This document shows, piece after piece, positions 1 to 14,129 of a DNA stretch of 64,000 bases. Where the stretch lies: the IMG/VR virus record IMGVR_UViG_3300003154_000789, positions 61,331 through 125,330 of that record. One strand, given 5' to 3'. Each line of letters begins with the position of its first letter. Position 1 is the stretch's first letter. This DNA comes from a virus. Both the position numbers and the translations under genes were made by a program. The notes below the pieces were generated by a model, which made no database searches, was not told where the DNA came from, and saw only the letters and a list, made by a program, of their open reading frames with translations.

Positions 1-394
1 ATTGAAGCGTAGCCTCAGGATCGAAATTCAAAGCCTCATCGATAGCTTTTTCCATGGCGGCAGCTGGAGTCATATTTCTCCACTCGTAGTCGTCTACGGC
101 ATTCAATAACCCACGCAGATACTTACGCTGAGTATCGTTCAGAATGCTGTTACTTTCTCCAGCATGAAATCTTCCAACACGACCACGTTTATTCCTTTTC
201 AATTCCGGTTCTTCGCCCTTATAATACATAGGCTCCCCGAAAAAAGATGAAGCTGACATACATATCAATCTCAAGAGCGGAGACTTGATATCGTAAGCTG
301 GTCCACCCATAAAGTTCATGTGGGTATCTTTAGGAATTTCCAAAACATCACTCGGTGTTGCTCTAAGCACTGTTTTCTTTTTGTTTATGCTCAT
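1..394 (-). CDS. Ro60/TROVE-domain RNA-binding protein, N-terminal part (runs off left edge)
   Basis: Manual translation from ATG at 394 (RBS GGAGG): MSINKKKTVLRATPSDVLEIPKDTHMNFMGGPAYDIKSPLLRLICMSASSFFGEPMYY..., open to position 2. The N-x-x-GG-x-AY...S-F-x-GE-x-x-YY pattern matches the TROVE N-terminus. Not in the ORF track. Confidence 0.75.
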   Translation of the reverse strand, partial: MSINKKKTVLRATPSDVLEIPKDTHMNFMGGPAYDIKSPLLRLICMSASSFFGEPMYYKGEEPELKRNKRGRVGRFHAGESNSILNDTQRKYLRGLLNAVDDYEWRNMTPAAAMEKAIDEALNFDPEATLQ

Positions 395-443
395 TGTTCA
401 CTCCTCCTTATTTAGAGAGATTACTAATTATGTACAAGATTAT

Positions 444-686
444 TTACCAAATAGATCTACATCTTCCTTCACAGGCTGAGGAAAGTTCAAAATCCTTATA
501 TGAATTATGACAACCATTGTCCCACGAAACTTCAGCAGAATTGGAACCAAAATCTTGTACTGTTCCAACACATTCCCATTTTGTTCCGACCTTAGGATTA
601 GAATCACCTATACTATACCCTCTATCTGGTTTTGTCAAGAGGACTCGCATTCCTATATCCAAATCTCTACATCTTAATGCTTCCAT
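444..686 (-). CDS. small SH3-like protein (MIB-HERC2-like motif)
   Basis: GMRV...VGTV...VSWDNGCHNSY resembles the MIB-HERC2 pattern. Confidence 0.45.
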   Translation of the reverse strand: MEALRCRDLDIGMRVLLTKPDRGYSIGDSNPKVGTKWECVGTVQDFGSNSAEVSWDNGCHNSYKDFELSSACEGRCRSIW

Positions 687-708
687 AAATCTTGCTTCCT
701 CTTTTTTG

Positions 709-783
709 AGTCCCTAGCAGGATTCGAACCTGCGACACAGAGGGTAGAAACCTCTTGCTCTTATTCCACTGAGCTATAGGGAC
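709..783 (-). tRNA. tRNA-Arg(UCU), no encoded CCA
   Basis: Acceptor GTCCCTA/TAGGGAC, D arm GCTC/GAGC, anticodon arm AGAGG-TTTCTAC-CCTCT, T arm GCAGG-TTCGAAT-CCTGC. Confidence 0.93.
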
Positions 784-794
784 TTGATTTTATA

Positions 795-1685
795 TTACGG
801 AGTTGATAAAGATCTACCGAATTCTCCAGATTTTAATATTGATTCCAGACGTTTGTTTTTCAAATTATTTCTGGATACATTATAATTGTTTGGTTTATTT
901 TTGTCCCAATAGCTTGTCATTTTTTCATGTAATGCAAAGCGAGGAAGATCGGCATCAAATTCTTTGATTTTCTTACCTTTATCACCACCATGAACAAAAC
1001 TATACAATCTAGCGGCATAAATCATATTGAAACTGTTACCGAATCCCCCACTCTTAGGCTCATTTAAAGTTTTAGGCATTTGGGAAACCATATAATTTCT
1101 GGAAAATGGTAATATATGATGCCCAGAATTTGTAGCCTGATAATAAGAGGCTAAACAGAAAGAAGTAAAGAATCCCATTTTGTGGCTATCCATCAGATAT
1201 AGCACACCCTTCACAAAGAATGGCTCTTCTTGGACATATCTGCCCGCACAAAGATAGACATAAAGCATTTCCATGGAGATGTCATCAAAGCAGATGTCAT
1301 ATATACCATTTTCTATGAAGTTCTTTCCAATGTTTTCTGGCATCAAATTATTTTTCTTACACACTTTTACCCATTCCTCGATTTCCTCTTTGTTTAAATG
1401 GGTTTCCTTTTTAGTGTGCTTATTTGCCTCACAAAATAATCGTATTCTGTTCGGTTTTACTTTTGCTGACTTAAGATAATCAAGACAACTTTCTCTGAAA
1501 TTTGCAAAGCACGCTTGACCCGTTTTGGATATAACTTTTCCACACGATTTACGAACCGCTTCTGTACTCATTTCTGAAGTATCTTTGTCGGATCTGAACA
1601 CATCATATGCTAAGCTATAATAAGAATGCTCATTACCAATCATAAATTTCTTTTCATCAAATAGCAACATCTTTGCTGCCTTCAT
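795..1685 (-). CDS. hypothetical protein
   Basis: Long ORF; likely start MKAAKM at 1685 overlaps the upstream stop (ATGA). Confidence 0.75.
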   Translation of the reverse strand: MKAAKMLLFDEKKFMIGNEHSYYSLAYDVFRSDKDTSEMSTEAVRKSCGKVISKTGQACFANFRESCLDYLKSAKVKPNRIRLFCEANKHTKKETHLNKEEIEEWVKVCKKNNLMPENIGKNFIENGIYDICFDDISMEMLYVYLCAGRYVQEEPFFVKGVLYLMDSHKMGFFTSFCLASYYQATNSGHHILPFSRNYMVSQMPKTLNEPKSGGFGNSFNMIYAARLYSFVHGGDKGKKIKEFDADLPRFALHEKMTSYWDKNKPNNYNVSRNNLKNKRLESILKSGEFGRSLSTP

Positions 1686-1954
1686 CCTGCATTCTCCTTT
1701 CCCAGAATATCCTGTTTGATTTTTGCTATTTTCTTTTCGAGTTCTTTTTGTTGAATCCTTTTTGAAATTTCCATAAGAATTGAACAAGACAACATAGTAA
1801 TAGCATTTCCCATCACATGTTCTATCTCGTGAGGAGGATATCTAAGTTTAACATATTTTTCGAAGACCGGTCTAAGTAACTTATTGACTTCTATGTCCAG
1901 CTCTCTAGCGGGATCCAGATATGAATCGTATTTCTTATGGAAGAAGCTTTTCAT
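1682..1954 (-). CDS. hypothetical protein, paralog of 1964..2167
   Basis: Shares YL-x-x-A-x-EL...P-x-F-x-x-YVKL-x-Y...I-x-HVM with its neighbour. Confidence 0.7.
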   Translation of the reverse strand: MKSFFHKKYDSYLDPARELDIEVNKLLRPVFEKYVKLRYPPHEIEHVMGNAITMLSCSILMEISKRIQQKELEKKIAKIKQDILGKENAG

Positions 1955-1963
1955 TTCACTCCT

Positions 1964-2167
1964 TTATTCTTTTCTTAAAAACATATGTGTAAGTTCACAT
2001 TGCCATACAGCAGACGCCATAACATGCGAAATTTGGCGGATGGAATAACCGAGCTTTACGTACTCATCAAAGATGGGTTGTATGGCTTCGGTTGTTTTCA
2101 TTTCCAATTCGTTAGCAGCTTCCAGATAGGTTTCATCCTTTTCACGATACAAATTTTTCATAAACAT
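1964..2167 (-). CDS. hypothetical protein, paralog of 1682..1954
   Basis: YLEAANEL...PIFDEYVKLGY...ISHVM. Confidence 0.7.
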   Translation of the reverse strand: MFMKNLYREKDETYLEAANELEMKTTEAIQPIFDEYVKLGYSIRQISHVMASAVWQCELTHMFLRKE

Positions 2168-2588
2168 ATCCTTTTTGAATTAAATAATCCATAAGAATTC
2201 GATTATGATCAAAAACCATGTCGAGCATATTACGAAAGAGCTTTACATCCAGTTCAGCAACATCTATAGACTTTACTTCTTTAGCATCATCCCCAGCAAG
2301 CAGTTCTCCGTGTCCTTCACCTGAGTAAACTACCGAAACCACATGCTGTCTTGGATCACGCTTGGGATTACTATAGACACCAACCAATCCATCGATATTG
2401 AATTTAAGCCCTGTTTCTTCCATGACTTCTCTTTTTACAGCATCCTCACAGCTTTCGCCATATTCTACAAAGCCACCAGGTAATGCTAGCCCCAATGGTT
2501 CAAATTTTCTTTCGATCAGAACTATTTTGTTATCCCTGGTTTTGATTATAGCATCAACCGCCAAGTATGGTGTTTTCAATTCCAGCAT
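2142..2588 (-). CDS. Nudix hydrolase (ADP-ribose pyrophosphatase-like)
   Basis: Nudix box GGFVEYGESCEDAVKREVMEETGL; RDPR and AGDDA motifs; RBS before ATG 2588. Confidence 0.92.
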   Translation of the reverse strand: MLELKTPYLAVDAIIKTRDNKIVLIERKFEPLGLALPGGFVEYGESCEDAVKREVMEETGLKFNIDGLVGVYSNPKRDPRQHVVSVVYSGEGHGELLAGDDAKEVKSIDVAELDVKLFRNMLDMVFDHNRILMDYLIQKGYVYEKFVS

Positions 2589-2615
2589 TTTTATTCTCCT
2601 GTTTGTGCTCAAGTA

Positions 2616-2855
2616 TTAATATAAATCCTCACTGAACAGTAATGTTGGATGCAGTTTTCCATGGAACGAAATTTGCTTGTTCTCAATGAAGTGTGCCCTT
2701 GCTGATTTTCTATCCAAGAACTCTCCCTTATCAGTAACAAATCCTTGTATTCCATCTCTTAATTTTCCATAATTGCCAGGAGCACACAGTATATCCGGAT
2801 GTCTTTTACCTGTATAAACTATACCATCTTTTAAGATAGCTGATGTAACAATCAT
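2616..2855 (-). CDS. hypothetical phage-type protein
   Basis: ORF with RH and QGF-x-T-x-x-G-x-FL-x-R pattern. Confidence 0.65.
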   Translation of the reverse strand: MIVTSAILKDGIVYTGKRHPDILCAPGNYGKLRDGIQGFVTDKGEFLDRKSARAHFIENKQISFHGKLHPTLLFSEDLY

Positions 2856-2892
2856 TTCTTTCTTTTTCCTTTTTGAATTAAATAAACTCTTG

Positions 2893-2977
2893 TAGCACGG
2901 GAGGGGGTCGAACCCTCAATCCCTTACGGGCGTCAAATTTTAAGTCTGATGCATATACCAAATTCTGCCACCGTGCC
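2893..2977 (-). tRNA. tRNA-Leu(UAA), long variable arm, no encoded CCA
   Basis: GGCACGG/CCGTGCT acceptor; TCAGA-CTTAAAA-TTTGA anticodon arm; GAGGG-TTCGACC-CCCTC T arm. Confidence 0.92.
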
Positions 2978-3071
2978 ATGTTTAAACTAACCTCTATAAT
3001 ATAGATACTTAAAATACTTTTGTAGTACTAACTTTGCCTTTACTATACTACAAAATAATTATGGAGGTTTT

Positions 3072-3554
3072 ATGAAATTACGAAAATATACACAAGAACA
3101 ATTAACGGAAGCTGTAAGAGTGTCTTTTAGCTACCGTCAAACTCTTAGCAAATTAAATGTTGTACCGGCGGGCGGCAACTATGAAATATTGAAAAGAGCT
3201 ATAAAGTACTTTAATTTAGACTCATCCCATTTTAAAGGATGCGGTTGGAATAAAGGTAATAAATTTCCTCCTAAAAGACCAATAGAGGATTACTTTACTA
3301 ACAAACAGTCAATTCTTTCCCATAAATTAAAGAATAGGATGCTTAAAGATGGAATAGTGGAGCCAGTGTGCACTATGTGTGGCTTAAGTGAATGGCTTGG
3401 ACAGCCTATTCCTTTAGAACTCCATCATATAGACGGTAGTAGTCATAACAATAATCGTGAGAATTTAAGACTACTATGTCCTAACTGTCATTCCTTTACT
3501 TCAACTTATAGGAAATCAAAAATTAGCATTATGAATAAATCAAAAGCCCTGTAA
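3072..3554 (+). CDS. HNH endonuclease (freestanding homing-type)
   Basis: CxxC...LELHHIDG...NN...NL-x-x-LCPNCH; good RBS (GGAGG); only convincing plus-strand gene in the window. Confidence 0.9.
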   Translation: MKLRKYTQEQLTEAVRVSFSYRQTLSKLNVVPAGGNYEILKRAIKYFNLDSSHFKGCGWNKGNKFPPKRPIEDYFTNKQSILSHKLKNRMLKDGIVEPVCTMCGLSEWLGQPIPLELHHIDGSSHNNNRENLRLLCPNCHSFTSTYRKSKISIMNKSKAL

Positions 3555-3565
3555 TCATTGAACCA

Positions 3566-4700
3566 TTAATTCAATGTTTGAACCTCTGGAACTGGTCGAG
3601 AATAAAATTTATAATAATGATATAGCCATGGTTCTTGCATACAGATTATACTCCCATGACCTTTCAGATTGATAGCAAAAGAATCAACATGTTGTAGCTC
3701 TTTATTCATTATCACCCAAAATAATTCGTCAACTTCCTGCATTCCACCGCAAGGTATCATATGCTCGGTAAAATATGCATCCTCCACATACACGTGAGAA
3801 TGTATCATATAATTTATATTAGGAAGCATGTTGTAGAGTGACAACTGTATTGGAGTATCAACACTTGGTTTATGCTCCCCACGATACCATACTTTTCCAT
3901 CATTCATACCGACATGAACAAAAGAATCCAAACTTATACTCGTCTTATCTACATTCCTTTTTGAAATATATATCATGCCTTCTGGAGTACGAAAGCTTGG
4001 AAAACCAGATTCACAACGAAAGGAAGCATTTCCAAGAAACCTGGTGACTTCATTCGCTGGGCGAATCAACTCACTGAATTTATTTCCTGCATCCCTTACA
4101 TTGTCAATGAACGCTTTGATCTCAACGAAAGACTCAAGCTTATCATAACTTTTCCATACATAAGGTGCTTCAGGAGATTGTGTAGTATTCATTCGTATAA
4201 TGGTAAGAAGTTGCTTTGTTCGCTTTGCTATAGCAATCCCAAGCTCTACCATATTTGAACCAGCAAACCACTGGTTTCCTAGCGGATCAAGAAGCTTCGC
4301 TTCGATCTCTTTTGTGCTACTGCTACGATTGAATTCAATTATCAGATTGCTCTTCTTTGACAAAGCATGTGCCATTATATCTTGAAAAGCATACTCATTA
4401 TCGGTATTTCTTTTGGAAGATACCACTATGGATTTCGGATACAATTCTTTTATGTTCTTAAGCTTTGGTAAATGATTCGGAACATTTGGCATCCAAATAA
4501 TTACCTGATCTTTCCTTCCTAGAAGGACAATTTCATCGGGTGTAAGAAGACTTAATTGCCCATAAGATCCTCCGTTCTCGAAATACGTTTCCCCAAATAT
4601 GCCAGATTTTACTATACCGGTATAAATAAGATCAGCAATTTTTGAAGGCTTTCCTCCTTCCATGTCCCATGTACCAGCGATTAGTGTGATAGCTTCCATG
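3566..4700 (-). CDS. class II aldolase/adducin-like domain protein
   Basis: C-terminal KPSVDT...LY...MIHSH and LKGHG motifs; start MEAITL at 4700 with RBS AGGAG. Confidence 0.6.
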
Positions 4701-4716
4701 AATTTCTCCTTTCTAG

Positions 4717-4795
4717 TACCCGCAGGGGGATTTGAACCCAAACCGACCTCCCGCTTATAAGGCAGGTGCTGCTAACCAAGCTGAGCTATGCGGGT
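4717..4795 (-). tRNA. tRNA-Ile(UAU), no encoded CCA
   Basis: ACCCGCA/TGCGGGT acceptor; CCTGC-CTTATAA-GCGGG anticodon arm; T loop TTCAAAT with about 3 extra nt in the T stem/variable region. Confidence 0.85.
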
Positions 4796-4800
4796 TTATC

Positions 4801-5046
4801 TTACTTTCGTCTCCTTTTCTTCTCTTCCTTTGCTTTTCTTTTCTTTGACTCATCTCTGAACTTGGCCGGACAAGAACCACAGTAACACTTGAAAGCATGT
4901 CGTCCTACTCCAGTCCAGTAGCTACAGTAAGCACATTCTTTCTGGAATTCTGGTTCCTTCGGCTTCTTTATCTTTTTTGACATCCGGCTGGGCATTTTAT
5001 ACATCTCACCTAATTTACTGTCCGTTATTAGTGGTGCTATTCCCAT
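4801..5046 (-). CDS. small basic Cys-containing hypothetical protein
   Basis: CAYC...CYCGSC, Lys/Arg-rich tail. Confidence 0.55.
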   Translation of the reverse strand: MGIAPLITDSKLGEMYKMPSRMSKKIKKPKEPEFQKECAYCSYWTGVGRHAFKCYCGSCPAKFRDESKKRKAKEEKKRRRK

Positions 5047-5468
5047 TATTCATCCTCCCAGCCCCTCAGCCACATTTTCCGTACATCTCTACGAGTTTCT
5101 CGGAGCATAGTAGCGTTAGTATGCTGATACCATTTCATATGCAATTCTTTTGATAATTTGTTATGTTTTTCAAGGGTTCGAAAAGCTGTTATCACATCTT
5201 TTGGTAGGATGAACTCATCAGATGTTTGATATTCAAGTTCATTCTGGAAATCATTTCGATTTCCTATAATCCAACATCCGAATCTTGTTTCTGCCCAGAA
5301 GATGTTTTTCTTGCGATCAAGATATGAACCTAATCGATTGAAAATTGGCTCTATCTTTTCTTTGTTGTTAAGCCATTCCTCATTGAAGAAATTAAAATCT
5401 TCCTTATCTTTTGTGTCCAAAATAGTAAGTAGCGAAAGGACTTTATATCTACTCATAATCGTCTCCAA
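5046..5468 (-). CDS. hypothetical protein
   Basis: ORF in co-directional gene run. Confidence 0.65.
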   Translation of the reverse strand: METIMSRYKVLSLLTILDTKDKEDFNFFNEEWLNNKEKIEPIFNRLGSYLDRKKNIFWAETRFGCWIIGNRNDFQNELEYQTSDEFILPKDVITAFRTLEKHNKLSKELHMKWYQHTNATMLRETRRDVRKMWLRGWEDE

Positions 5469-5474
5469 TGAAGA

Positions 5475-5657
5475 CTAGTATTCGATTCTGAAGTTTCCAA
5501 TAAGTTTCAGCTTATCTTCGTCTATATTGCCCATAAAATTTCCTGGCGAAAGTGCCCAACATCTTCCTGTCTCATCACGGATAACTACTGTGTTGTTGAA
5601 CTCAAACACCTCTTCCAGTTCCGAAACATCGGCATCATTATTATTTTTTGTGTCCAT
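5475..5657 (-). CDS. hypothetical protein
   Basis: ORF with RBS AGGA. Confidence 0.55.
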   Translation of the reverse strand: MDTKNNNDADVSELEEVFEFNNTVVIRDETGRCWALSPGNFMGNIDEDKLKLIGNFRIEY

Positions 5658-5669
5658 ATGTTATTTCCT

Positions 5670-5984
5670 TTAACCAGTCCAAGTTACCAGATACCCCTTG
5701 TTATTAATGTCAAATAATCGACTGATTTGATAAGTCATTTTGTACTCATCCAGGACGTTCATTACTATGCCTTGCATCCTCTGACTATTACCAGTGATGA
5801 TTTCGAGCTCTGCTTCTTCGTTCCAATGCTCTTCTATGAATCTGATTACTTCTTGCTGGACATCTTCGTGCTTTAATCTATGCAGATCTTTTTTATATAT
5901 CTTCATAAGTTCCTCCCCTGCATCTCGTTCGTCGCTCGGAATTGGACCGAGACCAGCCAGGTCTTCACTTACCGATATATTCAC
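5670..5984 (-). CDS. small Smr-like domain protein
   Basis: DLH...IITGNS pattern resembles the Smr DLHG...IIHG motifs. Confidence 0.5.
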   Translation of the reverse strand: MNISVSEDLAGLGPIPSDERDAGEELMKIYKKDLHRLKHEDVQQEVIRFIEEHWNEEAELEIITGNSQRMQGIVMNVLDEYKMTYQISRLFDINNKGYLVTWTG

Positions 5985-6049
5985 GGAGTTGAACCGTCAG
6001 GACCCGGCGTGTTCCTGACCACTGCACCAGCTGTGGGTCAAACGAATCT

Positions 6050-6358
6050 TTATTTGACAAGCATTAAAGCACCCTCACCAGCCCATCCAACACCACTTTC
6101 ACATTGCACAAGACAGTCTGTGTGTTTGATTTTACCGAGTCCAATGTCTTCGTCCGGCCATGAATCGTAGTCAATGGTTATGGTTTTGCGGTACAGAACT
6201 GTACCTACACCACTGAAGATACAAGGAATATGATAGTTCTCTTTGTATTTTCCAGTAGTAGCTTTGTGTCGCAAGCATACTCCGGCAGGAGTAACTGGTG
6301 TAACTTTACTACCAACTTTAATTCCCTCTCTCCTCAAATTCTTTTTTGAATTACACAT
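6050..6358 (-). CDS. hypothetical protein
   Basis: ORF; likely start MCNSKK with RBS GAGG. Confidence 0.55.
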   Translation of the reverse strand: MCNSKKNLRREGIKVGSKVTPVTPAGVCLRHKATTGKYKENYHIPCIFSGVGTVLYRKTITIDYDSWPDEDIGLGKIKHTDCLVQCESGVGWAGEGALMLVK

Positions 6359-6362
6359 ATTG

Positions 6363-6617
6363 TTATCCTCTTTCACAAATTTTAAGCAAAGGACAAAAGG
6401 AAAAGCTGCAATGCACTGCAAAGCCACCTCTGAAAATATGTTTGTTATTTGTGCAAGAATTCCAATCTTCACAGTCCAGTTCTTCTTCGATGATTAGTTT
6501 TCTGTATTCGCACTTTTTTGCAAATCTTTCAAACCTTTCCCTGTTACTCCTTTCTGTCAGATAAACGCGTCTTCTAGCCCTGATTAATCCTTTTAACTCT
6601 TTGTCATCTTTACACAT
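6363..6617 (-). CDS. hypothetical Cys-containing protein
   Basis: ORF with RBS AGGAG. Confidence 0.55.
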   Translation of the reverse strand: MCKDDKELKGLIRARRRVYLTERSNRERFERFAKKCEYRKLIIEEELDCEDWNSCTNNKHIFRGGFAVHCSFSFCPLLKICERG

Positions 6618-6645
6618 CTGATAACTCCTTTATTTAATTGACTTG

Positions 6646-6720
6646 TCTGGTCGGCAAGATTTGAACTTGCGATCTGATGCGTCCAAGGCACCCGCGGTAA
6701 CCAGGCTCCGCTACGACCAG
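6646..6720 (-). tRNA. tRNA-Pro(UGG), no encoded CCA
   Basis: CTGGTCG/CGACCAG acceptor; GGTGC-CTTGGAC-GCATC anticodon arm; GCAAG-TTCAAAT-CTTGC T arm. Confidence 0.92.
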
Positions 6721-6727
6721 TTTGTGC

Positions 6728-6868
6728 GTGGAGAGAATTTTTTAACAACAGTATTGTCTTATGACTCTTGCTCTACCAGCTGAGCTACATTCCTATTTAA
6801 GGAATGATGAGATTCGAACTCATGACACAGAATTTTGAATGAAGTAACTGTTATCTTCACTGCTCCAC
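6728..6868 (-). ncRNA. Y-RNA-like ncRNA 1 (YrlA-like) with circularly permuted tRNA-like module
   Basis: Terminal stem GUGGAG/CUCCAC; CAGUGAAG...GUUACUUCA motif; T arm (6807-6823) precedes a hairpin-closed acceptor-like stem (6788-6806), then a D arm (6770-6785). Confidence 0.8.
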
Positions 6869-6870
6869 TT

Positions 6871-6942
6871 TTGCGGGGGTGGGAATCGAACCCACGTATC
6901 CAGATTTATGAGACCTAGTTGGCGACCAACAGCCTCCCCGCG
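6871..6942 (-). tRNA. tRNA-Met(CAU), initiator-like but atypical
   Basis: CGCGGGG/CCCCGCA acceptor with C1:A72 mismatch as in fMet; loop CTCATAA; T arm GTGGG-TTCGATT-CCCAC; short D arm. Confidence 0.75.
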
Positions 6943-6948
6943 ATAAAA

Positions 6949-7719
6949 TTATTCTTTTTTCTCTTTTCTAAAGGAGAATTTGTCAAAGCCATGTTTGGCT
7001 ATCCGATCTTTATCTGTCACCTCAATCATAATTGGGGACTTGCCACCCATCACTCCGCCGATAAACATAGACAACTCCTGAAAAGCATTGAATGGATTCA
7101 CGATCTTATAAAAGTCTATGTCCTTTAAACATTTATTCTTGAACACTCTGCCTTTTTCTGCATAGGTATAGATAGGGTTATAAGCAATCACTATCACAGG
7201 CGAGTCGAGTTCAAAGTGAAGAGCAGCAACATCTTCTGATATAGAACCTTGTTTATCAAACAATGACTTAAATCTTTTTCTTATGGTCATGACTTTGACC
7301 TTTGCTCCACTGAATATACCACTTCTTAAATTGTTTTCGAGATTTATCTTCGAGTGTTTGGTAATTACTTTTTCAAATGCATCGAATGTGTAAATAAATT
7401 CGGTTATTGCTTTGCCAACAATGCGTTTATAGTAATCATCATATGTTTTTATAGTATACATAACCTCTATGCAGAAGTATATCTTTCCGCAGAACAGTAT
7501 GATGTGTTTTGAAACTACTTTTAAATCATCACTGTCTATTTTCTTTACTCGAAAATCAAAGATCTCGTCATTGATTTTTAACAACTTATCACGTAATTCT
7601 GGCTGCTTTTCCAATGACTCTGTTATTTCTTCTTCTTTTCTTTCATAGATTACGTTTGGATCTATACCGTAACCCAGTGCTTTGTCATAGTAATCGTGAT
7701 ACTTGCTGAAAATTCTCAC
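6949..7719 (-). CDS. hypothetical phage-type protein
   Basis: 256-aa ORF, MRIFSKYHDYYD...HGFDKFSFRK. Confidence 0.75.
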   Translation of the reverse strand: MRIFSKYHDYYDKALGYGIDPNVIYERKEEEITESLEKQPELRDKLLKINDEIFDFRVKKIDSDDLKVVSKHIILFCGKIYFCIEVMYTIKTYDDYYKRIVGKAITEFIYTFDAFEKVITKHSKINLENNLRSGIFSGAKVKVMTIRKRFKSLFDKQGSISEDVAALHFELDSPVIVIAYNPIYTYAEKGRVFKNKCLKDIDFYKIVNPFNAFQELSMFIGGVMGGKSPIMIEVTDKDRIAKHGFDKFSFRKEKKE

Positions 7720-7728
7720 GTCAACCTC

Positions 7729-7944
7729 CTATGCAAGAGGAAATTCGCTGTCAAATATGTCAAACGCATCGATTTGTTTAACAATTTCTGTTTTTTGGCT
7801 ATTCATAAAGTTGATAATATCTGTATCTGCTCCCAAGTTTACCAACTCATTGAAGCATTCATAACAAATGTAACCATGTACTGATGAAAGTCTATCACAT
7901 AAAATGTTATCACAACCTTTTCGAAAGCAAGCTTTTACACCCAT
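7729..7944 (-). CDS. small Cys-containing hypothetical protein
   Basis: C-x4-C...C...CYEC; likely start MGVKAC. Confidence 0.55.
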   Translation of the reverse strand: MGVKACFRKGCDNILCDRLSSVHGYICYECFNELVNLGADTDIINFMNSQKTEIVKQIDAFDIFDSEFPLA

Positions 7945-8210
7945 TGTTTTTTCCTCTATGAAACAAAAAACCCCCGTCAATTTTCGTTGGCGAGGGTTCA
8001 AAGAAATCAATGAATATTCAGACGCTAATCTCTTCTATTACCCCCGATGTGTATTGGGTATAAATATCCTGTTAACCTTGTGGGTATTAAGTAATATCTA
8101 TTTTCGATTTGATTAATCCGTCTTTTCATCTTTTCCTTTTAAGTTAATAAAACCAACGTGGAACGATGGTTCAACTCTTTGATCCCTTGGATCATGAGAT
8201 AAAAAAGTAA

Positions 8211-8347
8211 GTGGAGAGAACATTTGGAACAGGGTTTTTGTTTTAGCTTCCCAGGCAAGATTTTTTGGGGCCGGGGATAGGATTTGCACCTATAATCTAT
8301 TCATTATGATTGAATTGCTGAAGTATCTGTACCTTTCACTACTCCAC
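8211..8347 (-). ncRNA. Y-RNA-like ncRNA 2
   Basis: GUGGAG/CUCCAC terminal stem; UAGUGAAA...AUACUUCA motif; GGUACAG/CUGUUCC inner stem; T-arm-like AUAGG-UGCAAAU-CCUAU at 8277-8293. Confidence 0.7.
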
Positions 8348-8589
8348 TACTTGTTGGTCACTGTCGCTACGCCTTCCTCATTGCTGAGGGCATTGGGTCT
8401 CTCCCAACCACCTTTGACCTGAACTATTGAACAGGTTGTGATCAAGTTTTCCGGGTACTCCAGAGCTAACCGGGTTTATAACACTTCTGGATAGTGTCGA
8501 AGTGAGTATTCTGTCTAAGTTTTATTCCTCACATAACCTACTTACGTCAGAGCCACACTGTGGATGCTTTACACAGGTTCTAATCTTCA

Positions 8590-8790
8590 TTAAGCCTTTA
8601 CAACATTGACTGCTGCAGGACCTTTGTCGCCCTGTTCAATGTCAAAAGAAACTTTGTCGCCTTCAGCCAAGGATTTAAACCCATCAGCTTTGATAGCGGA
8701 AAAATGTACGAATACATCTTTACCATTAGCTTGTTCGATGAAGCCAAAACCCTTGCTGTCATTGAACCATTTAACGATACCGTTTGCCAT
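8590..8790 (-). CDS. cspA: cold-shock protein
   Basis: [13 protein letters not shown]...DVFVHFSAI (RNP1/RNP2); strong RBS AAGGAGG. Confidence 0.96.
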
Positions 8791-8909
8791 TTACGTATAA
8801 CACCTCCTTTTAGTTTATTTTTTGTTTCACTGCCAAGGGTGTTACATAGCGAACGGTATTGCTAGCGAACGGAACTGTATTGCCTTGTACTTATGATGAA
8901 ACTTAAAGA

Positions 8910-8979
8910 GCGGAGAGACACTTCGAATACGGTGTTGTTTTCATTTCCATTGAAGTAACCGTGTTCTTCACTGCTCCAC
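8910..8979 (-). ncRNA. Y-RNA-like ncRNA 3 (minimal copy)
   Basis: GUGGAG/CUCCGC stem; CAGUGAAG...GUUACUUCA motif; GAACACGGU/ACCGUAUUC inner stem. Confidence 0.7.
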
Positions 8980-8986
8980 TACTTAT

Positions 8987-9167
8987 GACAGAGAGATTAT
9001 TTGAAGTTCGGAGATAAACAAGTCGCGGCTTTCATGGAGAAGCCCGCAGCAACCCACGACACATATGTTTTATGTCGCAAAATTAACAGGAACAAACTCT
9101 ATTATACACCAATATACAATTTACAATTGTAGTTATATGAAGTATCCGAATATCTCACTACTCTGTC
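8987..9167 (-). ncRNA. Y-RNA-like ncRNA 4 (multi-hairpin insert)
   Basis: GACAGAG/CUCUGUC stem; UAGUGAG...AUACUUCA motif; UUCGGA/UCCGAA inner stem; internal hairpins. Confidence 0.65.
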
Positions 9168-9214
9168 TATGAATAACGTCTCTTGAAGAGACGATAATTC
9201 CTTTCATATTTTAA

Positions 9215-9242
9215 AGATAATCATTCTCTTGTATTTGTCAAG
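9215..9242 (-). promoter_or_regulatory. putative sigma70-type promoter upstream of the ncRNA/csp cluster
   Basis: TTGACA (9242-9237), 16-nt spacer, TATCTT (9220-9215) on the minus strand in AT-rich intergenic DNA. Confidence 0.45.
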
Positions 9243-9454
9243 AGGAAAAAATAATTATCCTGTATTTATTATGAGGTTAGTTTATTATCCAAGATATCCA
9301 ACATTGGATAGAAGATTTTCCACGCTTTCCGGTTGCTTGACTAGCATGCCTCGTGTAGAACGAAAAGTTTCAGAATTAATAAATCCACTTTCCCTTGCAT
9401 CAGATAAAAAATAATATAGACACGATGCGTAACTACAGTTAAATACATGTTTTA

Positions 9455-9679
9455 TTACTGTTGTTTTTCGGGCAACACGTTTCTGCATAATATTTTCCTA
9501 ATGAATTTCTCAACCATCGATGGAGTGACACCACCATCAAACAAAGTAGAAGAATACAGACCATCGATTTGTACCACTAATTTGCTTCCATTATCCAAAG
9601 AGTTGGAAGATTTCACAACATATCTGTATTCTTTTCCATCGACTATTATCTTACGTGAACCCTTCTTCGGTAATGCCAT
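9455..9679 (-). CDS. hypothetical protein
   Basis: MALPKKGSRKIIVDGKEYRY..., RBS AGGAGA. Confidence 0.65.
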   Translation of the reverse strand: MALPKKGSRKIIVDGKEYRYVVKSSNSLDNGSKLVVQIDGLYSSTLFDGGVTPSMVEKFIRKILCRNVLPEKQQ

Positions 9680-9690
9680 ACTGTCTCTCC

Positions 9691-11133
9691 TTATTCAAAC
9701 TTCCGGCAATCTTCCTCATCGCTCTCATAGCTTTGAATATTGCCGTGTAGATACTCAGTTGTGAGCTTTAATAAATCAAGCTCATTGTTCAGTTTCGGAT
9801 CATCAAGAACTCTATTAAGGAGAAATTTCAAGATATTTCCTATTTGAATTCCTGGCTTCAAATTGAAGATTTCCATGAGTTTATTCCCATTTATCTTCAA
9901 GTCTCTTATTTCGAAGCCATTGCTTTCACGATAGATCTCCAATATTTTATGCTCAAAATCTTTCTGTCTTTCTGTGACAGCGACCCCTTTAAGCCCATTA
10001 CCGAGTCTTTCAGCAGCACGTAGTTTGAACAGTGGAAAGTTACCTATCTTTCCCTCTGTCATATATTCTTTTCCTATTTCAACTCTTCGGATGAATTTAC
10101 GTATAGCTGAATCTGTCCACTCGCGTGTGAAATGAAACATGTGAAACTTAACAAGCATAAGAACCTGCTTTGTAGTTTCTGCATCATATTTTAGACGTCT
10201 AAGAAAATCTCGTGCTAACTTGGCACTAACCATCTCGTGTTTGTGAAACGTGGTTCTCTTTTCGTGATCATCTTTGGTTACTCTCCGAGTTTCTGGCTTC
10301 CCAATATCGTGTAGCAAGCCAGCCAATCTTATTACCAAATTACTTTCACAATGATCAACAGTGTAAATGAGATGGTTAAACACGTCATATTTATGATATT
10401 TGTTGTCCTGTTTGACTCCTACACAGGCATCCAATTCCGGAGATATGTATTCAAGTAACCCGACTCGTCTTAAAAATCGAAGGTATTTACTTGGTCTTTT
10501 AGACATCAGGATTTTATTGAACTCTGCTCTGATAACTTCTACCGGGCATTTGCTAATTAAAGCTGCGTTGCTTTTTATAGCGTCGATCAATTCATTGTTG
10601 ATTGTGTATTCTGTACGAGCAGAAAGTGATATTGCACGAAGCATACGAATTGGAGATTCTTTAATACGCTCATTTGGACTACCATTAGAAGACAATCTTC
10701 TATTTACAATGTCTTTTCTACCGCCAACAAGATCGATTATATCCTTTTTGGACGAAAAATTAATCGGTAAATAAAGAGCATTTATTTTAAAATCTCTGAA
10801 TCTTACATCTTGTTGCAAAGTGTTGCTTGGATCTGAGAGTTGTTTCTTACCTTTTCTTGGTAAAGTAATTTGTGCCTCTATTGGATCATCAAAAGCTTTA
10901 AACAGTATGATGTTGATTTCAAATAGATCACTGGTTCTAGCCAAACTAACCTCTTTTATGCTCCCATATTGCCGCAAGAATGTCTTTATACTCTTTAAGG
11001 ACAGATTTCTTACAACAATATCCAAATCTGAATTACTTTTGTTTCTCAAAAAATCCCGCACAAAACCACCAACAATGAATACCTCTGCTTTTGTCTCTCT
11101 ATCGAGACGCTGCAATACTTCGATGGTTTTCAT
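9691..11133 (-). CDS. CCA-adding/poly(A) polymerase-family nucleotidyltransferase with HD domain
   Basis: GGFVRD...DLDI (motif A), RDFKINAL, RMLRAI, HKYDVFNH...LLHDIGKP (HD); likely start MKTIEV at 11133. Confidence 0.9.
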   Translation of the reverse strand: MKTIEVLQRLDRETKAEVFIVGGFVRDFLRNKSNSDLDIVVRNLSLKSIKTFLRQYGSIKEVSLARTSDLFEINIILFKAFDDPIEAQITLPRKGKKQLSDPSNTLQQDVRFRDFKINALYLPINFSSKKDIIDLVGGRKDIVNRRLSSNGSPNERIKESPIRMLRAISLSARTEYTINNELIDAIKSNAALISKCPVEVIRAEFNKILMSKRPSKYLRFLRRVGLLEYISPELDACVGVKQDNKYHKYDVFNHLIYTVDHCESNLVIRLAGLLHDIGKPETRRVTKDDHEKRTTFHKHEMVSAKLARDFLRRLKYDAETTKQVLMLVKFHMFHFTREWTDSAIRKFIRRVEIGKEYMTEGKIGNFPLFKLRAAERLGNGLKGVAVTERQKDFEHKILEIYRESNGFEIRDLKINGNKLMEIFNLKPGIQIGNILKFLLNRVLDDPKLNNELDLLKLTTEYLHGNIQSYESDEEDCRKFE

Positions 11134-11161
11134 TTTATTTTTTATCTCCTTTACAGATTTA

Positions 11162-11486
11162 CGATTTCCTATTTTATTTTTTTGATGATTTTTTATCTTT
11201 CGACCACGATGATGGTCTATCCAGTGGGCATACTTCGGGATCACACGCTACGGGAAACTTGCATTTTATGAGCTTATGTTCACAAGTATCGTCTTCTTCC
11301 CCCAAAAATTCACAGTCATTTCTTAATACATCCCACAGTTTTTCGGCCTCATCGGACCTCTGGTTGAATATTTTGGATTGTTTTGTCAATATTTTCACTT
11401 CTTTCTTGAGATATTTTAGCCTTTCTATATCCATAGCGAATTCCCGTTTTATTTTTTTTGAAGATTTTTTATCCTACGACCATGAT
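11162..11486. repeat. imperfect ~50-bp direct repeat pair (about 11162-11213 and 11438-11486)
   Basis: cgatttcctattttatttttttgatgattttttatctttcgaccacgat vs cgaattcccgttttattttttttgaagattttttatcctacgaccatgat. Confidence 0.6.
11174..11434 (-). CDS. hypothetical protein
   Basis: ORF with Cys cluster CEHKLIKCKFPVACDPEVC. Confidence 0.55.
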   Translation of the reverse strand: MDIERLKYLKKEVKILTKQSKIFNQRSDEAEKLWDVLRNDCEFLGEEDDTCEHKLIKCKFPVACDPEVCPLDRPSSWSKDKKSSKK

Positions 11487-11491
11487 AACCA

Positions 11492-12385
11492 TCATAGCGT
11501 ACCCTCTTCCATCATGGAAAGAATCCTTTTCTTGAGAGCAGTTAGTTTTCCGGATACCCAACTTTTAGATTTTCCGAAAGTTGCACCAATTTCATCAAAG
11601 GATTTATCAAGCATAATCCCTTCACAAATTAAAAGTTCTTGTTCTGTCATGTATTCTTTCAGTTTTTCAACTATACAAGCAGCTTCAAGAGTTTCGGAAT
11701 TTCTTTTATGAATCTCATTTGGAACTTGTTCTACATATTCGGTATCGGTTGGTATTACCTCTATTCTTTCCACAAACTTTTCATAAGCGACCCCAGCTCT
11801 TTTCGCCGCCAAAGAAATATTCTTCGCTAAATCCAAGCACTTTTCAATGTCGCTTGAAAATATACCGCAACTTGAATACACTTCCTCAGATGTGGTTTTC
11901 TCAACGATGACGATTTTCCAATCGATATTGAGTTTCTCGCAAATCATTTTTATCTTTTTTAAATTAGAATTTGCCTTTTTGATGTAAACGGGCACAGAAA
12001 TTATTGCCGAATTGCTTCTAACGAACTCATTCAAAGTGTCGCGTATTACAAATTTAGCATATGCTTCAAAATTATCACTTCGAGTTGGATCCCAATCTCG
12101 ATATGCACGTGCTAAACCTATAAGTGATTCACCAAAAAGATCAGATTTACTCATACCGGTGGATATCGAATACGAGTATGATAGATTATTGAGTATTTTT
12201 TCAAAACGGTTATAGATGTTTTCTGCTTCTACCGGAGTGTCAGCAAGGAAATATGCTGGCATCTCTTCAGTTTTCTTTAATACTGTTTGAGTTATAACAT
12301 CAAATTTATATCCACCTTTGTTTTTGTAGCGTCCATCATCATCATTTCCATCCCAATTTATTGGTTTGTCTTTAAATGGTGTCAT
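11492..12385 (-). CDS. sigma-70-family RNA polymerase sigma factor
   Basis: Region 2 DLFGESLIGLARAYRDWDPTR..NFEAYAKFVIRDTLNEFVR; region 4 HTH SFDEIGATFGKSKSWVS; start uncertain (12385-12445). Confidence 0.85.
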   Translation of the reverse strand: MTPFKDKPINWDGNDDDGRYKNKGGYKFDVITQTVLKKTEEMPAYFLADTPVEAENIYNRFEKILNNLSYSYSISTGMSKSDLFGESLIGLARAYRDWDPTRSDNFEAYAKFVIRDTLNEFVRSNSAIISVPVYIKKANSNLKKIKMICEKLNIDWKIVIVEKTTSEEVYSSCGIFSSDIEKCLDLAKNISLAAKRAGVAYEKFVERIEVIPTDTEYVEQVPNEIHKRNSETLEAACIVEKLKEYMTEQELLICEGIMLDKSFDEIGATFGKSKSWVSGKLTALKKRILSMMEEGTL

Positions 12386-12386
12386 A

Positions 12387-13367
12387 TCATGCTCTCTCGT
12401 AATTAAAGTCAATTTCCTTTTTGATAAAACGAGTGGTTTTGCCATTGACTTTCAAGTATTGAACTCCTTTATCCGTTATAATGCGACCCTTACCACTAAT
12501 AACAATCAATCCTTTTCTGATTAGGTAAGGTTCAGCAAAATCTCGAATACTTTTACTGTCTTCCTGTAATATAATGGATAGATTATCTAATCCAACAGGA
12601 ATTCCAGTTTCGAACAGCGTCTTTAATATTCTCAATTCTAGCGTGGTAAAACCTTCTTCATCAACACCAAGTTCTTCAAAAGCCTCTTGGATTATTGGAG
12701 CAGTGGCTATTATCGCTTTTATTGAAAGCATTTTGTCACGTATTCTTTCTACAAAACCGACGGCTATTCTGGGTGTTCCCCTGCTACGTTTCGCTATTTC
12801 AAGCACTCCGGCTGGAGTGATTTTAATTTTTAATCGTGCAGCATGATAACTTACAATGTTCTCCATTTCTGGTAATTCATAAGGCTGAAAATTAAATACC
12901 AATTTGAATCTATCCCTGAATGGTTTCGATAACTTTCCAGCTAAAGTAGTTGCTCCTACCAAAGTAAAGAAAGGTACCCAGAAATATTTATTGGGTTTAT
13001 TGGCTTCAATCATGAAACGTTCCATAACTAAACCCAAGGGCTCCTGTCCTTTTATATTCAGATTATGAATTTCATCGATGAATAGAATGGTTGGTCTTAT
13101 TTTTCCGATACGATTTCCCATGTCATCATAGTTTTCATGATTAAGTTGATCTAGAACATTGAGTACATGTTCATGATCTTTAAGCTCATCTGGTACAACC
13201 GATAGAAATGGGGCTTTTGTTATTTCGGCTATATAGCGAGCCATCGTTGTTTTTCCACAACCGGCAGCACCAGAGAAAAGCATATGAGGTATTGCCATAT
13301 TACGTATGTTAGCCGCTTTGATGGATACCTCTAACTGTTTTTTAGTATTCTCATGCCCAATTACCAT
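12387..13367 (-). CDS. ruvB: Holliday junction branch migration ATPase RuvB
   Basis: GAAGCGKTT Walker A, LFIDEIH Walker B, LVGATT, PFRDRF, RGTPRIA, EPYLIRKGLI. Confidence 0.92.
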   Translation of the reverse strand: MVIGHENTKKQLEVSIKAANIRNMAIPHMLFSGAAGCGKTTMARYIAEITKAPFLSVVPDELKDHEHVLNVLDQLNHENYDDMGNRIGKIRPTILFIDEIHNLNIKGQEPLGLVMERFMIEANKPNKYFWVPFFTLVGATTLAGKLSKPFRDRFKLVFNFQPYELPEMENIVSYHAARLKIKITPAGVLEIAKRSRGTPRIAVGFVERIRDKMLSIKAIIATAPIIQEAFEELGVDEEGFTTLELRILKTLFETGIPVGLDNLSIILQEDSKSIRDFAEPYLIRKGLIVISGKGRIITDKGVQYLKVNGKTTRFIKKEIDFNYERA

Positions 13368-13376
13368 TATTATCTC

Positions 13377-14129
13377 CTAGCAGCAGAACCCCATACCATT
13401 GCGATAATAATTCTCATCGTCGATTTCATCTGCAACACCAGTACCGTCGGCGTCTTCACCCATGGTTTCTGGAAGTACGGGATTAAAAGTTCCTTCCATG
13501 ATCTGATTTATCTTCTCTTCCATTAAATCAAGAGCTGCTTTAAGGGGCTTCTTGTTTTGTGTACGACCTAATACTGCAGGCTCAGGCTCAGCCTTAACCG
13601 CTGTTTTGGTATATGTACCTGCAAAATTGTTATAACGTGTAGTCGTGTTAACGAAAGATCCAACACCAGTGGAAGTAGCACCAGTTGTACTGGTAGATTT
13701 TTCGATTGGTTTCCCCTCAGTATATTCCTTCGGGACATTGGTAAATTTTTTGATATCCAATATTCTTGGGTCGTTTTCAAGACCATAGTTATTGGTTATC
13801 ATATCTGAATAAATCTTTTCCACCATTTCTGTCGCCAGAGATTGATCGATGTCCTCGGCGGTGAGATATGTCATGTTCTTATAGTCGTCCTCAAGTTCCT
13901 CAATCGTCATAATATTGTAGAATTTAAGATTGAGAACGTTTGTAGATTCCTTAAGACCATGTAAAAGTATGAATTTTTCATCATTTTTCTCAATGATACC
14001 CTTGAACAATCCGGCAACAACATCATACTTCGAATCTTTGTTCAATATCATTTCGAGATACACATAATTTGTCTTACAGGCTGCTTGCGTAGTATTCTGG
14101 TCTACCACCATGATTCTTTCTCCTTCCAT
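13377..14129 (-). CDS. hypothetical protein
   Basis: 250-aa ORF with Thr-rich linker. Confidence 0.7.
   Translation of the reverse strand: MEGERIMVVDQNTTQAACKTNYVYLEMILNKDSKYDVVAGLFKGIIEKNDEKFILLHGLKESTNVLNLKFYNIMTIEELEDDYKNMTYLTAEDIDQSLATEMVEKIYSDMITNNYGLENDPRILDIKKFTNVPKEYTEGKPIEKSTSTTGATSTGVGSFVNTTTRYNNFAGTYTKTAVKAEPEPAVLGRTQNKKPLKAALDLMEEKINQIMEGTFNPVLPETMGEDADGTGVADEIDDENYYRNGMGFCC

What the first reader, a model, noticed from the sequence alone, without database searches (positions are those of the whole stretch)
1..394. Ro60/TROVE gene hidden at the left edge
Seen: an open frame from ATG 394 to the window edge, with a GGAGG RBS and THMNFMGGPAY...SASSFFGEPMYY, absent from the supplied ORF track. 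Known: TROVE/Ro60 N-termini carry N-x-x-GG-x-x-Y...S-F-x-x-E-x-x-YY. Inference: this is the protein partner of the Y-like RNAs 6-9 kb away.
Basis: partly seen in the sequence, partly recalled or inferred. Interest (0 to 1): 0.7.

Follow-up and report, generated by a model that had tools for sequence, protein, structure and literature searches.

The report
Phage Ro60 gene with Y-RNA partners
The open frame cut off by the window's left edge is the start of a complete 555-residue Ro60 (TROVE plus vWA) RNA-binding protein of a large uncultured groundwater phage, and seven small Y-like RNAs that flank it are its probable partners; phage Ro60 proteins are already known, so this is a solid new member of a known kind.

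Summary
Window 2-394 (minus strand) holds the first 131 codons of a gene with a GGAGG ribosome-binding site, and the quoted peptides are there. In the parent 141.5-kb phage record the frame runs on to 555 residues and ends at a strong terminator-like hairpin.

The full protein passes Pfam TROVE (33.4 bits, cut-off 23) and PHROG 850 (E 2.8e-34). It keeps a vWA MIDAS motif. Its predicted fold matches solved Ro60 structures over residues 38-552: Z 27 to Thermus phage phiLo Ro60, Z 24 to Xenopus Ro60, Z 18 to Deinococcus Rsr. The in-window fragment alone matches nothing.

The partner claim is supported only by association. A covariance model finds exactly seven RNAs with one covarying bulged "handle" in the genome held, all on the gene's strand and within 9 kb of it. 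One of them matches Rfam YrlA below threshold. Nine of ten phage contigs found by the RNA motif alone encode a TROVE protein nearby, against none of four control contigs. Binding itself is untested, and the handle lacks the canonical GNCGAA motif.

The scan's earlier notes on this same window (e1-5353398, e1-5353399) reached the same reading. Verdict: a new member of a known kind.

The parts
1..394 (-). 5' part (codons 1-131) of the 555-codon Ro60/TROVE-vWA gene. The whole gene is G000:C1:60057-61724 (-), which is L001:227-1894 (-), so 1273 nt lie left of the window.
401..409 (-). Ribosome-binding site AAGGAGGAG (GGAGG at 407-403), 8 nt upstream of ATG 394
   Evidence: read directly
6728..6868 (-). 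Y-like RNA a (141 nt) lying between tRNA-Met and tRNA-Pro. It has the handle plus a tRNA-like head with a T arm and a D arm. It gives a sub-threshold full-length Rfam YrlA match (47 bits, gathering score 69).
8211..8347 (-). Y-like RNA b (137 nt): the same handle with a different head that includes a T-arm-like hairpin
8910..8979 (-). Y-like RNA c (70 nt, short-head class), directly upstream of the cold-shock gene leader
8988..9166 (-). Y-like RNA d (179 nt, long head). The handle was found by motif plus closure. The covariance-model match is weak (13.8 bits, over 9086-9166 only).
444..686 (-). 80-aa ORF immediately upstream of Ro60. It belongs to a small family that is conserved, sometimes in two copies, upstream of Ro60 in related phages. 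It has no Pfam match and its role is unknown.

Best explanation
The frame is the N-terminus of an intact phage Ro60 orthologue: a HEAT-repeat ring (TROVE) closed by a vWA domain with a MIDAS site. It is most likely made during infection and assembles with the phage's own Y-like RNAs, four upstream in the window and three downstream outside it. These RNAs share a bulged closing helix. Its 5' strand reads stem1-G, one bulged base, AGUGAR, stem2, UUACUUCA. Its 3' strand reads stem2', a short loop, UCU, C-stem1'. They carry different heads, one of which is a YrlA-type tRNA mimic. By analogy with Deinococcus Rsr-Yrn1-PNPase and with phiLo Ro60-Yrl-PNPase, the handle would dock on the outer face of the Ro60 ring, and the heads would gate the cavity or tether other enzymes or RNAs. 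The locus also carries tRNA genes, a CCA-adding enzyme, Nudix and an RNA ligase, with RtcB elsewhere in the genome, so the likely job is RNA quality control or repair of the translation apparatus during infection. Shown here: the gene, its family, its fold, the RNA family and its covariation, and the linkage of the RNAs to TROVE genes. Inferred: binding, the docking geometry and the physiological role.
For: Gene and family:
- The ORF is full length at 555 aa, with an RBS.
- Pfam TROVE scores 33.4 bits against a cut-off of 23. PHROG 850 'RNA-binding protein' gives E 2.8e-34 over residues 115-542.
- A family profile matches phiLo Ro60 at E 9e-28.
- The AlphaFold model has pLDDT 81 and pTM 0.81. 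The top 13 Foldseek matches are all Ro60.
- VIA-align gives Z 27.1 to 9KOP, 23.8 to 1YVP and 18.2 to 2NVO over residues 38-552. The next class is plain vWA domains at Z about 11 over residues 352-550.
- D360, S362, S364, T434 and D460 are invariant in the family alignment.
- The gene is single copy in the genome held and is followed by a 14-bp terminator-like hairpin.

RNAs:
- 51 of 58 motif sites close into the two-stem handle, against 1 of 33 chance-motif sites and 9% with a shuffled stem 1.
- On a structure-blind MAFFT alignment, 94.6% of cells pair and 9 of 13 pairs show compensatory changes. None of 500 shuffles reached this, and slid controls pair at 39-49%.
- Model R1 finds exactly 7 copies in 141.5 kb. 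All lie on the Ro60 strand, from 8.8 kb upstream to 3.2 kb downstream.
- One copy matches Rfam YrlA over the full model at 47 bits.

Linkage:
- Nine of ten contigs found by the RNA motif alone encode a TROVE protein 0.1-9 kb away on the same strand, including very divergent ones (E 1e-32 to 1e-43). None of four chance-match control contigs do.
- Bacillus phage G (gp540, 41% identical) has handle RNAs just upstream of its Ro60, one of them with a YrlA module.

Precedent: phiLo Ro60 binds two phage-encoded Yrl RNAs and assembles with host PNPase (PMC12135203). [quoted passage not shown]
Against: - There is no binding or expression data.
- The handle lacks the GNCGAAN0-1G motif proposed as the Ro60 contact in YrlA. 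It has G-N-AGUGAR instead.
- The YrlA match is below Rfam's gathering score, and that model also rings on ordinary tRNAs in 13 of 14 control genomes.
- The four in-window RNAs lie 6.3-8.8 kb from the gene, beyond the 4-kb rule used by Chen et al. Many related loci are syntenic, so their co-occurrence is not independent.
- One complete 85.8-kb phage (L099) has a good handle RNA (36.6 bits) but no TROVE gene.
- Cellular Ro60s are reached only by fold, not by sequence profile.
Confidence: 0.8

Rival explanations
1. It is a genuine Ro60-fold protein, but the handle RNAs are not its ligands. They might be processing cassettes or tRNA-like decoys or substrates for the neighbouring CCA-adding enzyme, RNA ligase or RNase P/Z. 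On this reading Ro60 acts on misfolded or damaged host or phage RNAs by itself, or with a different RNA.
For: - The canonical GNCGAA motif is absent.
- RNA a is flanked directly by tRNA-Met and tRNA-Pro, and the whole island is rich in tRNA genes and tRNA enzymes.
- A complete phage genome has a handle RNA but no TROVE gene.
- The in-window RNAs are 6-9 kb from the gene.
Against: - The RNA motif predicts a nearby same-strand TROVE gene in 9 of 10 otherwise unrelated contigs, against 0 of 4 controls.
- In more distant relatives (L007, L008, L013, L103, phage G) the RNAs abut the Ro60 start codon.
- The handle is a bulged stem with invariant bases on its 5' strand, the format that Ro60 recognises in animal Y RNAs (PMC4201824; PMC12135203).
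Confidence: 0.15
2. The gene is bacterial rather than viral. On this reading it is a host Rsr locus on a contig misclassified as a phage, or a recent capture with no phage function.
For: Some 55%-identical homologues are labelled as Aggregatilineales MAG proteins. The record is only 54% complete by CheckV.
Against: - Close relatives sit in conserved synteny on 260-395-kb viral contigs, some with direct terminal repeats.
- 95 GenBank phage records carry homologues, among them Bacillus phage G and phiLo.
- PHROG 850 is a phage protein family.
- The neighbours are typical jumbo-phage cargo: a tRNA array, tmRNA, HNH and NAD salvage genes.
Confidence: 0.03
3. The frame is a decayed or chance open reading frame with no product.
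For: The in-window 131 aa have no significant family match on their own.
Against: - The frame is 555 aa and uninterrupted, with an RBS and a terminator.
- Thousands of full-length homologues exist, with about 100 invariant columns.
- The gene is intact in an independent sample.
Confidence: 0.01

Closest known systems
Thermus phage phiLo Ro60 with Yrl1 and Yrl2 (PDB 9KOP, 9L5Y; PMC12135203)
   Same: It is a phage-encoded Ro60 with a HEAT ring and a vWA domain. It is the best sequence match (profile E 9e-28) and the best structural match (Z 27.1, 425 residues aligned, rmsd 3.6). Y-like RNAs are encoded beside the gene on the same strand.
   Different: Identity is only about 22-25%. This protein is about 55 residues longer, with a disordered N-terminus and a basic, low-confidence loop at residues 60-82. 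phiLo has two Yrl RNAs defined by a CGAA motif. This phage has seven RNAs with an AGUGAR handle.
Bacillus phage G gp540, 'putative TROVE domain ribonucleoprotein', with its YrlA-like RNA
   Same: It is the closest cultured-phage homologue, at 41% identity over 95% of the protein. Handle RNAs with the same CAGUUACUUC...CUGUU...UCU architecture lie just upstream, and one carries a YrlA tRNA-like module. The gene also sits in a tRNA and tmRNA island.
   Different: The handle's 5' motif is AGCGGU rather than AGUGAR. The host and the genome differ (497 kb, Bacillus).
Bacterial Rsr with YrlA/Yrn1 (Deinococcus radiodurans 2NVO; Salmonella rsr-yrlBA-rtcBA; Rfam RF02553)
   Same: The fold is the same (Z 18.2 over residues 38-549). 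There is a tRNA-mimic Y RNA with T and D arms. The genome also carries RNA-repair enzymes: RtcB elsewhere in the genome, and an RNA ligase 1.2 kb downstream.
   Different: Sequence similarity is undetectable at E 0.001 even with a profile. The YrlA score of 47 bits is below the gathering score of 69. The GNCGAAN0-1G motif is absent. There are seven RNAs rather than one or two. No PNPase gene was found in the held part of the genome.
Vertebrate Ro60 (TROVE2) with Y RNAs (1YVP, 9NEN)
   Same: The ring plus vWA fold is the same (Z 20-24). The partner RNAs close with a stem that carries a single bulged base on the 5' strand and conserved bases there.
   Different: Identity is 13-14%. The RNA sequences are unrelated, and Rfam Y_RNA gives no match at E up to 5. 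The phage setting is different.

Membership tests
Ro60 / TROVE (Pfam PF05731) | TROVE domain match above Pfam's gathering score | tested here: met
   33.4 bits against a cut-off of 23, E 3.7e-08, on the full 555 aa. The in-window 131 aa alone give no match.
Ro60 / TROVE (Pfam PF05731) | HEAT-repeat ring followed by a C-terminal vWA domain | tested here: met
   The model has pLDDT 81 and pTM 0.81. Ro60 structures are the top 13 Foldseek matches. VIA-align gives Z 18-27 over residues 38-552. vWA-only chains align to residues 352-550 at Z about 11. Ring closure and cavity size were not measured.
Ro60 / TROVE (Pfam PF05731) | MIDAS motif (DxSxS...T...D) in the vWA domain | tested here: met
   D360-N-S362-G-S364, T434 and D460 are invariant in 47 homologues. 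Assigning these residues to MIDAS follows the general vWA motif and is not a structural check.
Ro60 / TROVE (Pfam PF05731) | Binds Y RNA on the outer surface and single-stranded RNA ends in the cavity | not testable with these tools
   No protein-RNA modelling or assay was available. Only genomic association was tested.
PHROG 850 (phage 'RNA-binding protein', Ro-like) | Profile match over most of the protein | tested here: met
   E 2.8e-34, 119.8 bits, residues 115-542 against profile positions 49-456 of 476.
YrlA (Rfam RF02553), for the partner RNAs | Score at or above the gathering threshold of 69 bits | tested here: not met
   The best match is 47 bits over the full model at window 6739-6854. 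The other six RNAs do not match.
YrlA (Rfam RF02553), for the partner RNAs | tRNA-like domain with T arm, D arm and an acceptor-like stem | tested here: met
   RNA a aligns to the T arm (GAGUUCGAAUCUC), the acceptor-like stem and the D arm (GUAGCUCAG-CUGGUAGAGC) of the model. The L031 orthologue shows compensatory changes in the T and acceptor-like stems. This holds for one of the seven RNAs only.
YrlA (Rfam RF02553), for the partner RNAs | 5' motif GNCGAAN0-1G proposed as the Ro60 contact (PMC4201824) | tested here: not met
   All 51 handles have G-N-AGU(G/A)A-N at that place, and phage G has AGCGGU. GUGAAG is at best a one-base variant of NCGAAG.
YrlA (Rfam RF02553), for the partner RNAs | Encoded within 4 kb of the Ro60 gene (criterion of Chen et al. 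2014) | tested here: inconclusive
   The three downstream copies lie 2.9-3.2 kb away, but the YrlA-like copy lies 6.5 kb upstream. In L007, L008, L013, L103 and phage G the RNAs are within 1.3 kb.

The most novel reading that the evidence does not exclude
The phage runs a multi-headed Ro60 system. One Ro60 ring would be loaded, through a shared non-canonical handle (bulge plus AGUGAR / UCU), with any of seven different heads. Each head would act as an adaptor that directs the ring to a different partner, such as host PNPase, the phage RNA ligase or RtcB, the CCA-adding enzyme, or particular damaged tRNAs. Alternatively, a head could act as a decoy for host anticodon nucleases. That would make Ro60-Y RNA a programmable counter-defence and RNA-repair hub in jumbo phages, rather than a single quality-control particle.
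Probability: 0.15. Interest if true: 0.8.

Novelty: new member of a known kind. Interest (0 to 1): 0.42.

Why it matters
Ro60 is a conserved RNA-surveillance protein and a major human autoantigen. Its bacterial and phage versions are the tractable models for what Y RNAs do. This gene adds a well-supported jumbo-phage Ro60 from an uncultured groundwater lineage, and it anchors an unusually large set of seven candidate Y RNAs that share one covarying handle. The same handle occurs next to the Ro60 of the cultured Bacillus phage G, so the partnership, and the idea that different heads give one Ro60 different jobs, can be tested directly. The gene by itself is not surprising: phage Ro60s have been catalogued since 2014 and one was solved in 2025.

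Tried and rejected
- The in-window 131-aa fragment alone gave no family at E up to 0.01 in Pfam and only a chance hit in PDB sequences. It cannot be classified without the extension.
- The Rfam search at E up to 5 over window 1-14000 gave no Y_RNA (RF00019) or YrlB match.
- My first collection scan used a wrong spacer (N8-9) and returned 33 chance matches. I reused them as a negative control.
- The exact-motif scan with N5-7 is also mostly chance: 44 stretches were returned, holding 49 motif sites, and 20 of those sites close into a handle.
- ARAGORN with introns allowed and a relaxed threshold called a tRNA-Glu with a 153-nt intron in the ORF-free region downstream of Ro60. Nothing appears at the default threshold, so I rejected it.
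- Sigma-70-type promoter matches around the gene are no more frequent than in shuffles.
- No RNA holder is listed among the public runs, so nothing can be said about expression.
- RNase PH/PNPase and RNB family searches found nothing in the record. The record is only 54% complete, so this is not evidence of absence.
- Supplementary tables of Chen et al. 2014 are not held. I could not check whether the phage G RNAs found here are the ones they listed.
- A MAFFT alignment of 18 short-class RNAs staggered the 3' ends, so the pair count used a 10-sequence subset.
- No protein-complex job was sent, because the report makes no protein-protein binding claim.

Full report
**Observation.** Reading the minus strand at the left edge shows AAGGAGGAG at 409-401 and ATG at 394-392. 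An open frame then runs to the window edge. Frames that run off the window are not listed by default, which explains the gene's absence from an ORF track.

**Extension.** The window is G000:C1:61331-125330 of a 141,526-bp IMG/VR virus record that CheckV rates 54% complete. In that record the frame continues to 555 residues, at G000:C1:60057-61724 on the minus strand, which is L001:227-1894. A 14-bp terminator-like hairpin follows the stop codon.

The gene is single copy in the record. Contigs from groundwater metagenomes of two studies carry it. One 4.6-kb contig of a related strain spans the whole gene and the window edge with substitutions only and no indels.

**Family.**
- The full protein passes Pfam TROVE at 33.4 bits, against a cut-off of 23.
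- It matches PHROG 850, 'RNA-binding protein', at E 2.8e-34 over residues 115-542.
- By sequence, the only solved relatives are the two entries for Thermus phage phiLo Ro60: E 2e-12 with the single sequence and 9e-28 with a 47-sequence profile.
- The 131 residues inside the window match nothing significant on their own.
- More than 3400 homologues exist, most about 530-560 aa long and many carrying a precomputed TROVE hit.
- In an alignment of 47 of them, the N-terminal H-x-N-x-M and F-G-E-P-x-Y-Y motifs are invariant. So are D360, S362 and S364 (DxSxS), T434 and D460, which fit a vWA MIDAS site.

**Fold.** An AlphaFold2 model built on that alignment has mean pLDDT 81 and pTM 0.81. Only residues 1-35 and a basic loop at 60-82 have low confidence.

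Foldseek against the PDB puts thirteen Ro60 chains first, with E from 2.5e-17 to 4e-10 and 463-538 aligned columns. They are phiLo Ro60, Xenopus and human Ro60, and Deinococcus Rsr. Isolated vWA domains follow.

VIA-align gives these scores, each spanning about residues 38-552:

| Structure | Z |
|---|---|
| 9KOP (phiLo Ro60) | 27.1 |
| 9L5Y (phiLo Ro60) | 24.4 |
| 1YVP (Xenopus Ro60 with RNAs) | 23.8 |
| 2NVO (Deinococcus Rsr) | 18.2 |

The next class, vWA domains, scores about 11 on residues 352-550 only. I did not measure ring closure.

**Setting.** The gene sits in an RNA-metabolism island.
- Upstream on the same strand are a conserved 80-aa ORF, tRNA-Arg, a Nudix hydrolase, tRNA-Leu, a class II aldolase-like protein, tRNA-Ile, tRNA-Pro, tRNA-Met, a cold-shock protein and a CCA-adding enzyme with an HD domain.
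- Downstream come about 985 nt without an ORF, then an RNA ligase (PF09414), an HD_4 protein, an ATP-grasp protein and NAD-salvage genes.
- This order is conserved in eight related contigs of 46-330 kb whose Ro60 is 66-87% identical.
- RtcB is also encoded, 60 kb away, as two adjacent ORFs.
- No PNPase or RNase II family member was found in the half-genome held.

**The partner RNAs.** Rfam at relaxed threshold gives one full-length YrlA match at window 6739-6854: 47 bits, gathering score 69, E 5e-8. It lies between tRNA-Met and tRNA-Pro and has T-arm, acceptor-like and D-arm modules. That model also rings on tRNAs in 13 of 14 control genomes, so I tested the RNAs independently.

Reading 6.6-9.7 kb on the minus strand showed a repeated 5' block: stem1-G, one base, AGUGAR, a short spacer, stem2, UUACUUCA. 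Each copy is matched downstream by stem2', a short loop, UCU and C-stem1'. Minimum-free-energy folds close all four in-window copies this way.

The tests gave the following.
- A motif-plus-closure scan over the genome and 13 related loci found 58 motif sites, and 51 of them close. That compares with 1 of 33 chance-motif sites and 9% when stem 1 is shuffled.
- There are 36 different stem-1 sequences. The UCU is invariant. Every copy lies on the Ro60 strand.
- On a structure-blind MAFFT alignment of ten short copies, 94.6% of cells pair and 9 of 13 pairs have changes on both sides. None of 500 shuffles reached this, and slid controls pair at 39-49%.
- A covariance model built from that alignment finds exactly seven matches in all 141.5 kb, on both strands searched. 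Four are at window 6728-6868, 8211-8347, 8910-8979 and 9086-9166 (the last is weak). Three are at L002:15483-15791, which is 2.9-3.2 kb downstream of Ro60.

**Linkage to Ro60.** I scanned IMG/VR for the bare RNA motif.
- Among the hits that also close into a handle, nine of the ten contigs tested encode a TROVE protein 0.1-9 kb away on the same strand. Several of these proteins are very divergent, with E 1e-32 to 1e-43 against the family profile.
- None of four chance-match control contigs do.
- The model also finds copies abutting the Ro60 genes of L013 (41% identity) and of cultured Bacillus phage G (gp540, 41% identity). In phage G the handle reads AGCGGU, and one copy contains a YrlA module.
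- One exception is a complete 85.8-kb phage with a good handle RNA and no TROVE gene.

**Comparison with what is known.** Ro60 orthologues and YrlA-like RNAs in phages were reported in 2014, including mycobacteriophages, CcrColossus and Bacillus phage G (PMC4201824, and as cited in PMC12135203). Jumbo-phage TROVE proteins were listed as RNA-repair components in 2021 (PMC7824862). phiLo Ro60 was solved in 2025 and shown to bind two phage Yrl RNAs and to assemble with host PNPase (PMC12135203).

The gene is therefore a new member of a known kind. Three things differ here: the number of candidate partners (seven), their modular heads, and a handle that lacks the GNCGAAN0-1G or CGAA motif used to define bacterial and phiLo Y RNAs. 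I found no paper in the library that describes this handle. Earlier notes of this scan on the same window (e1-5353398, e1-5353399) reached the same reading of seven RNAs and of a YrlA-type member. I read them only after my own scans, and they agree.

**Mechanism, with status.**
- Shown: an intact Ro60-fold gene, a covarying RNA family around it, and a statistical linkage of that RNA motif to TROVE genes.
- Inferred from the Xenopus, Deinococcus and phiLo systems: the bulged handle docks on the ring's outer face. The heads gate the cavity or tether partners such as host PNPase. The particle serves RNA quality control or repair of tRNAs during infection.
- I put about 0.95 on the family assignment, about 0.7-0.75 on the RNA partnership, and 0.8 on the combined statement as worded.

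Noticed in passing
L002:17740-18726 (minus strand), which is G000:C1:59070-60056, just left of the window: About 985 nt directly 3' of the Ro60 stop codon have no ORF of 75 aa or more, yet they are conserved at nucleotide level over their whole length with L030 (83%) and L031 (76%), and in blocks with L009, L032-L034 and L037. The stretch holds two T-arm-like hairpins (GGGUUCGAAUCCCC and GGGGUUCAAUUCCCC...CUCCACCCA). Rfam gives only weak partial tmRNA and mascRNA-like hits. It may be a large structured RNA. It remains unexplained.
   Followed up: partly
window 59875-60705 and 60897-61454 (minus strand): RtcB RNA ligase is encoded as two adjacent ORFs: 185 aa matching Pfam positions 12-153, and 276 aa matching positions 154-425. 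A 191-nt spacer separates them. No Rfam intron match lies in between. It could be a split gene, a short intervening element or a frameshift.
   Followed up: partly
window 444-686 (minus strand): This 80-aa ORF lies immediately upstream of Ro60. It belongs to a small family with the consensus G-x-RV...NP-x-VGT-x-WEC-x-GTV...W-DNG-x-x-N-x-YKD-x-EL...SIW. Relatives carry one or two copies upstream of Ro60. It has no Pfam match.
   Followed up: partly
window 8545-8914 (minus strand): An Rfam cspA thermoregulator match (79.9 bits, gathering score 78) covers the leader and coding region of a 66-aa cold-shock protein gene (8590-8790). Its 5' end abuts Y-like RNA c (8910-8979), so that RNA may be part of, or processed from, the csp leader transcript.
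   Followed up: no
L099:3340-3402, in the complete 85.8-kb record G010 with direct terminal repeats: A handle RNA scoring 36.6 bits with model R1 sits in a complete phage genome that has no TROVE homologue. It is an orphan Y-like RNA that might rely on a host Ro60.
   Followed up: partly
L115:7717-7872, 9194-9276, 9394-9477, 9625-9696 and 15299-15363 (Bacillus phage G): Cultured Bacillus phage G carries the same handle architecture beside gp540, with AGCGGU in place of AGUGAR. The copy at 7717-7872 contains a YrlA-type tRNA-like module (36 bits).
   Followed up: partly
L003:15933-16329 and L003:3491-16412; L002:1698-1773: The phage carries a tmRNA (74 bits) and an array of about 17 tRNA genes roughly 20-35 kb left of the window. 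It also has a tRNA with a CUA anticodon, which ARAGORN calls 'Pyl' and which could be an amber suppressor.
   Followed up: no
window 3072-3554 (+) and 3566-4741 (-): An HNH endonuclease gene on the opposite strand interrupts the otherwise co-directional island. Next to it is a 391-aa protein whose C-terminal part matches class II aldolase. That protein is conserved in the closest relatives.
   Followed up: no
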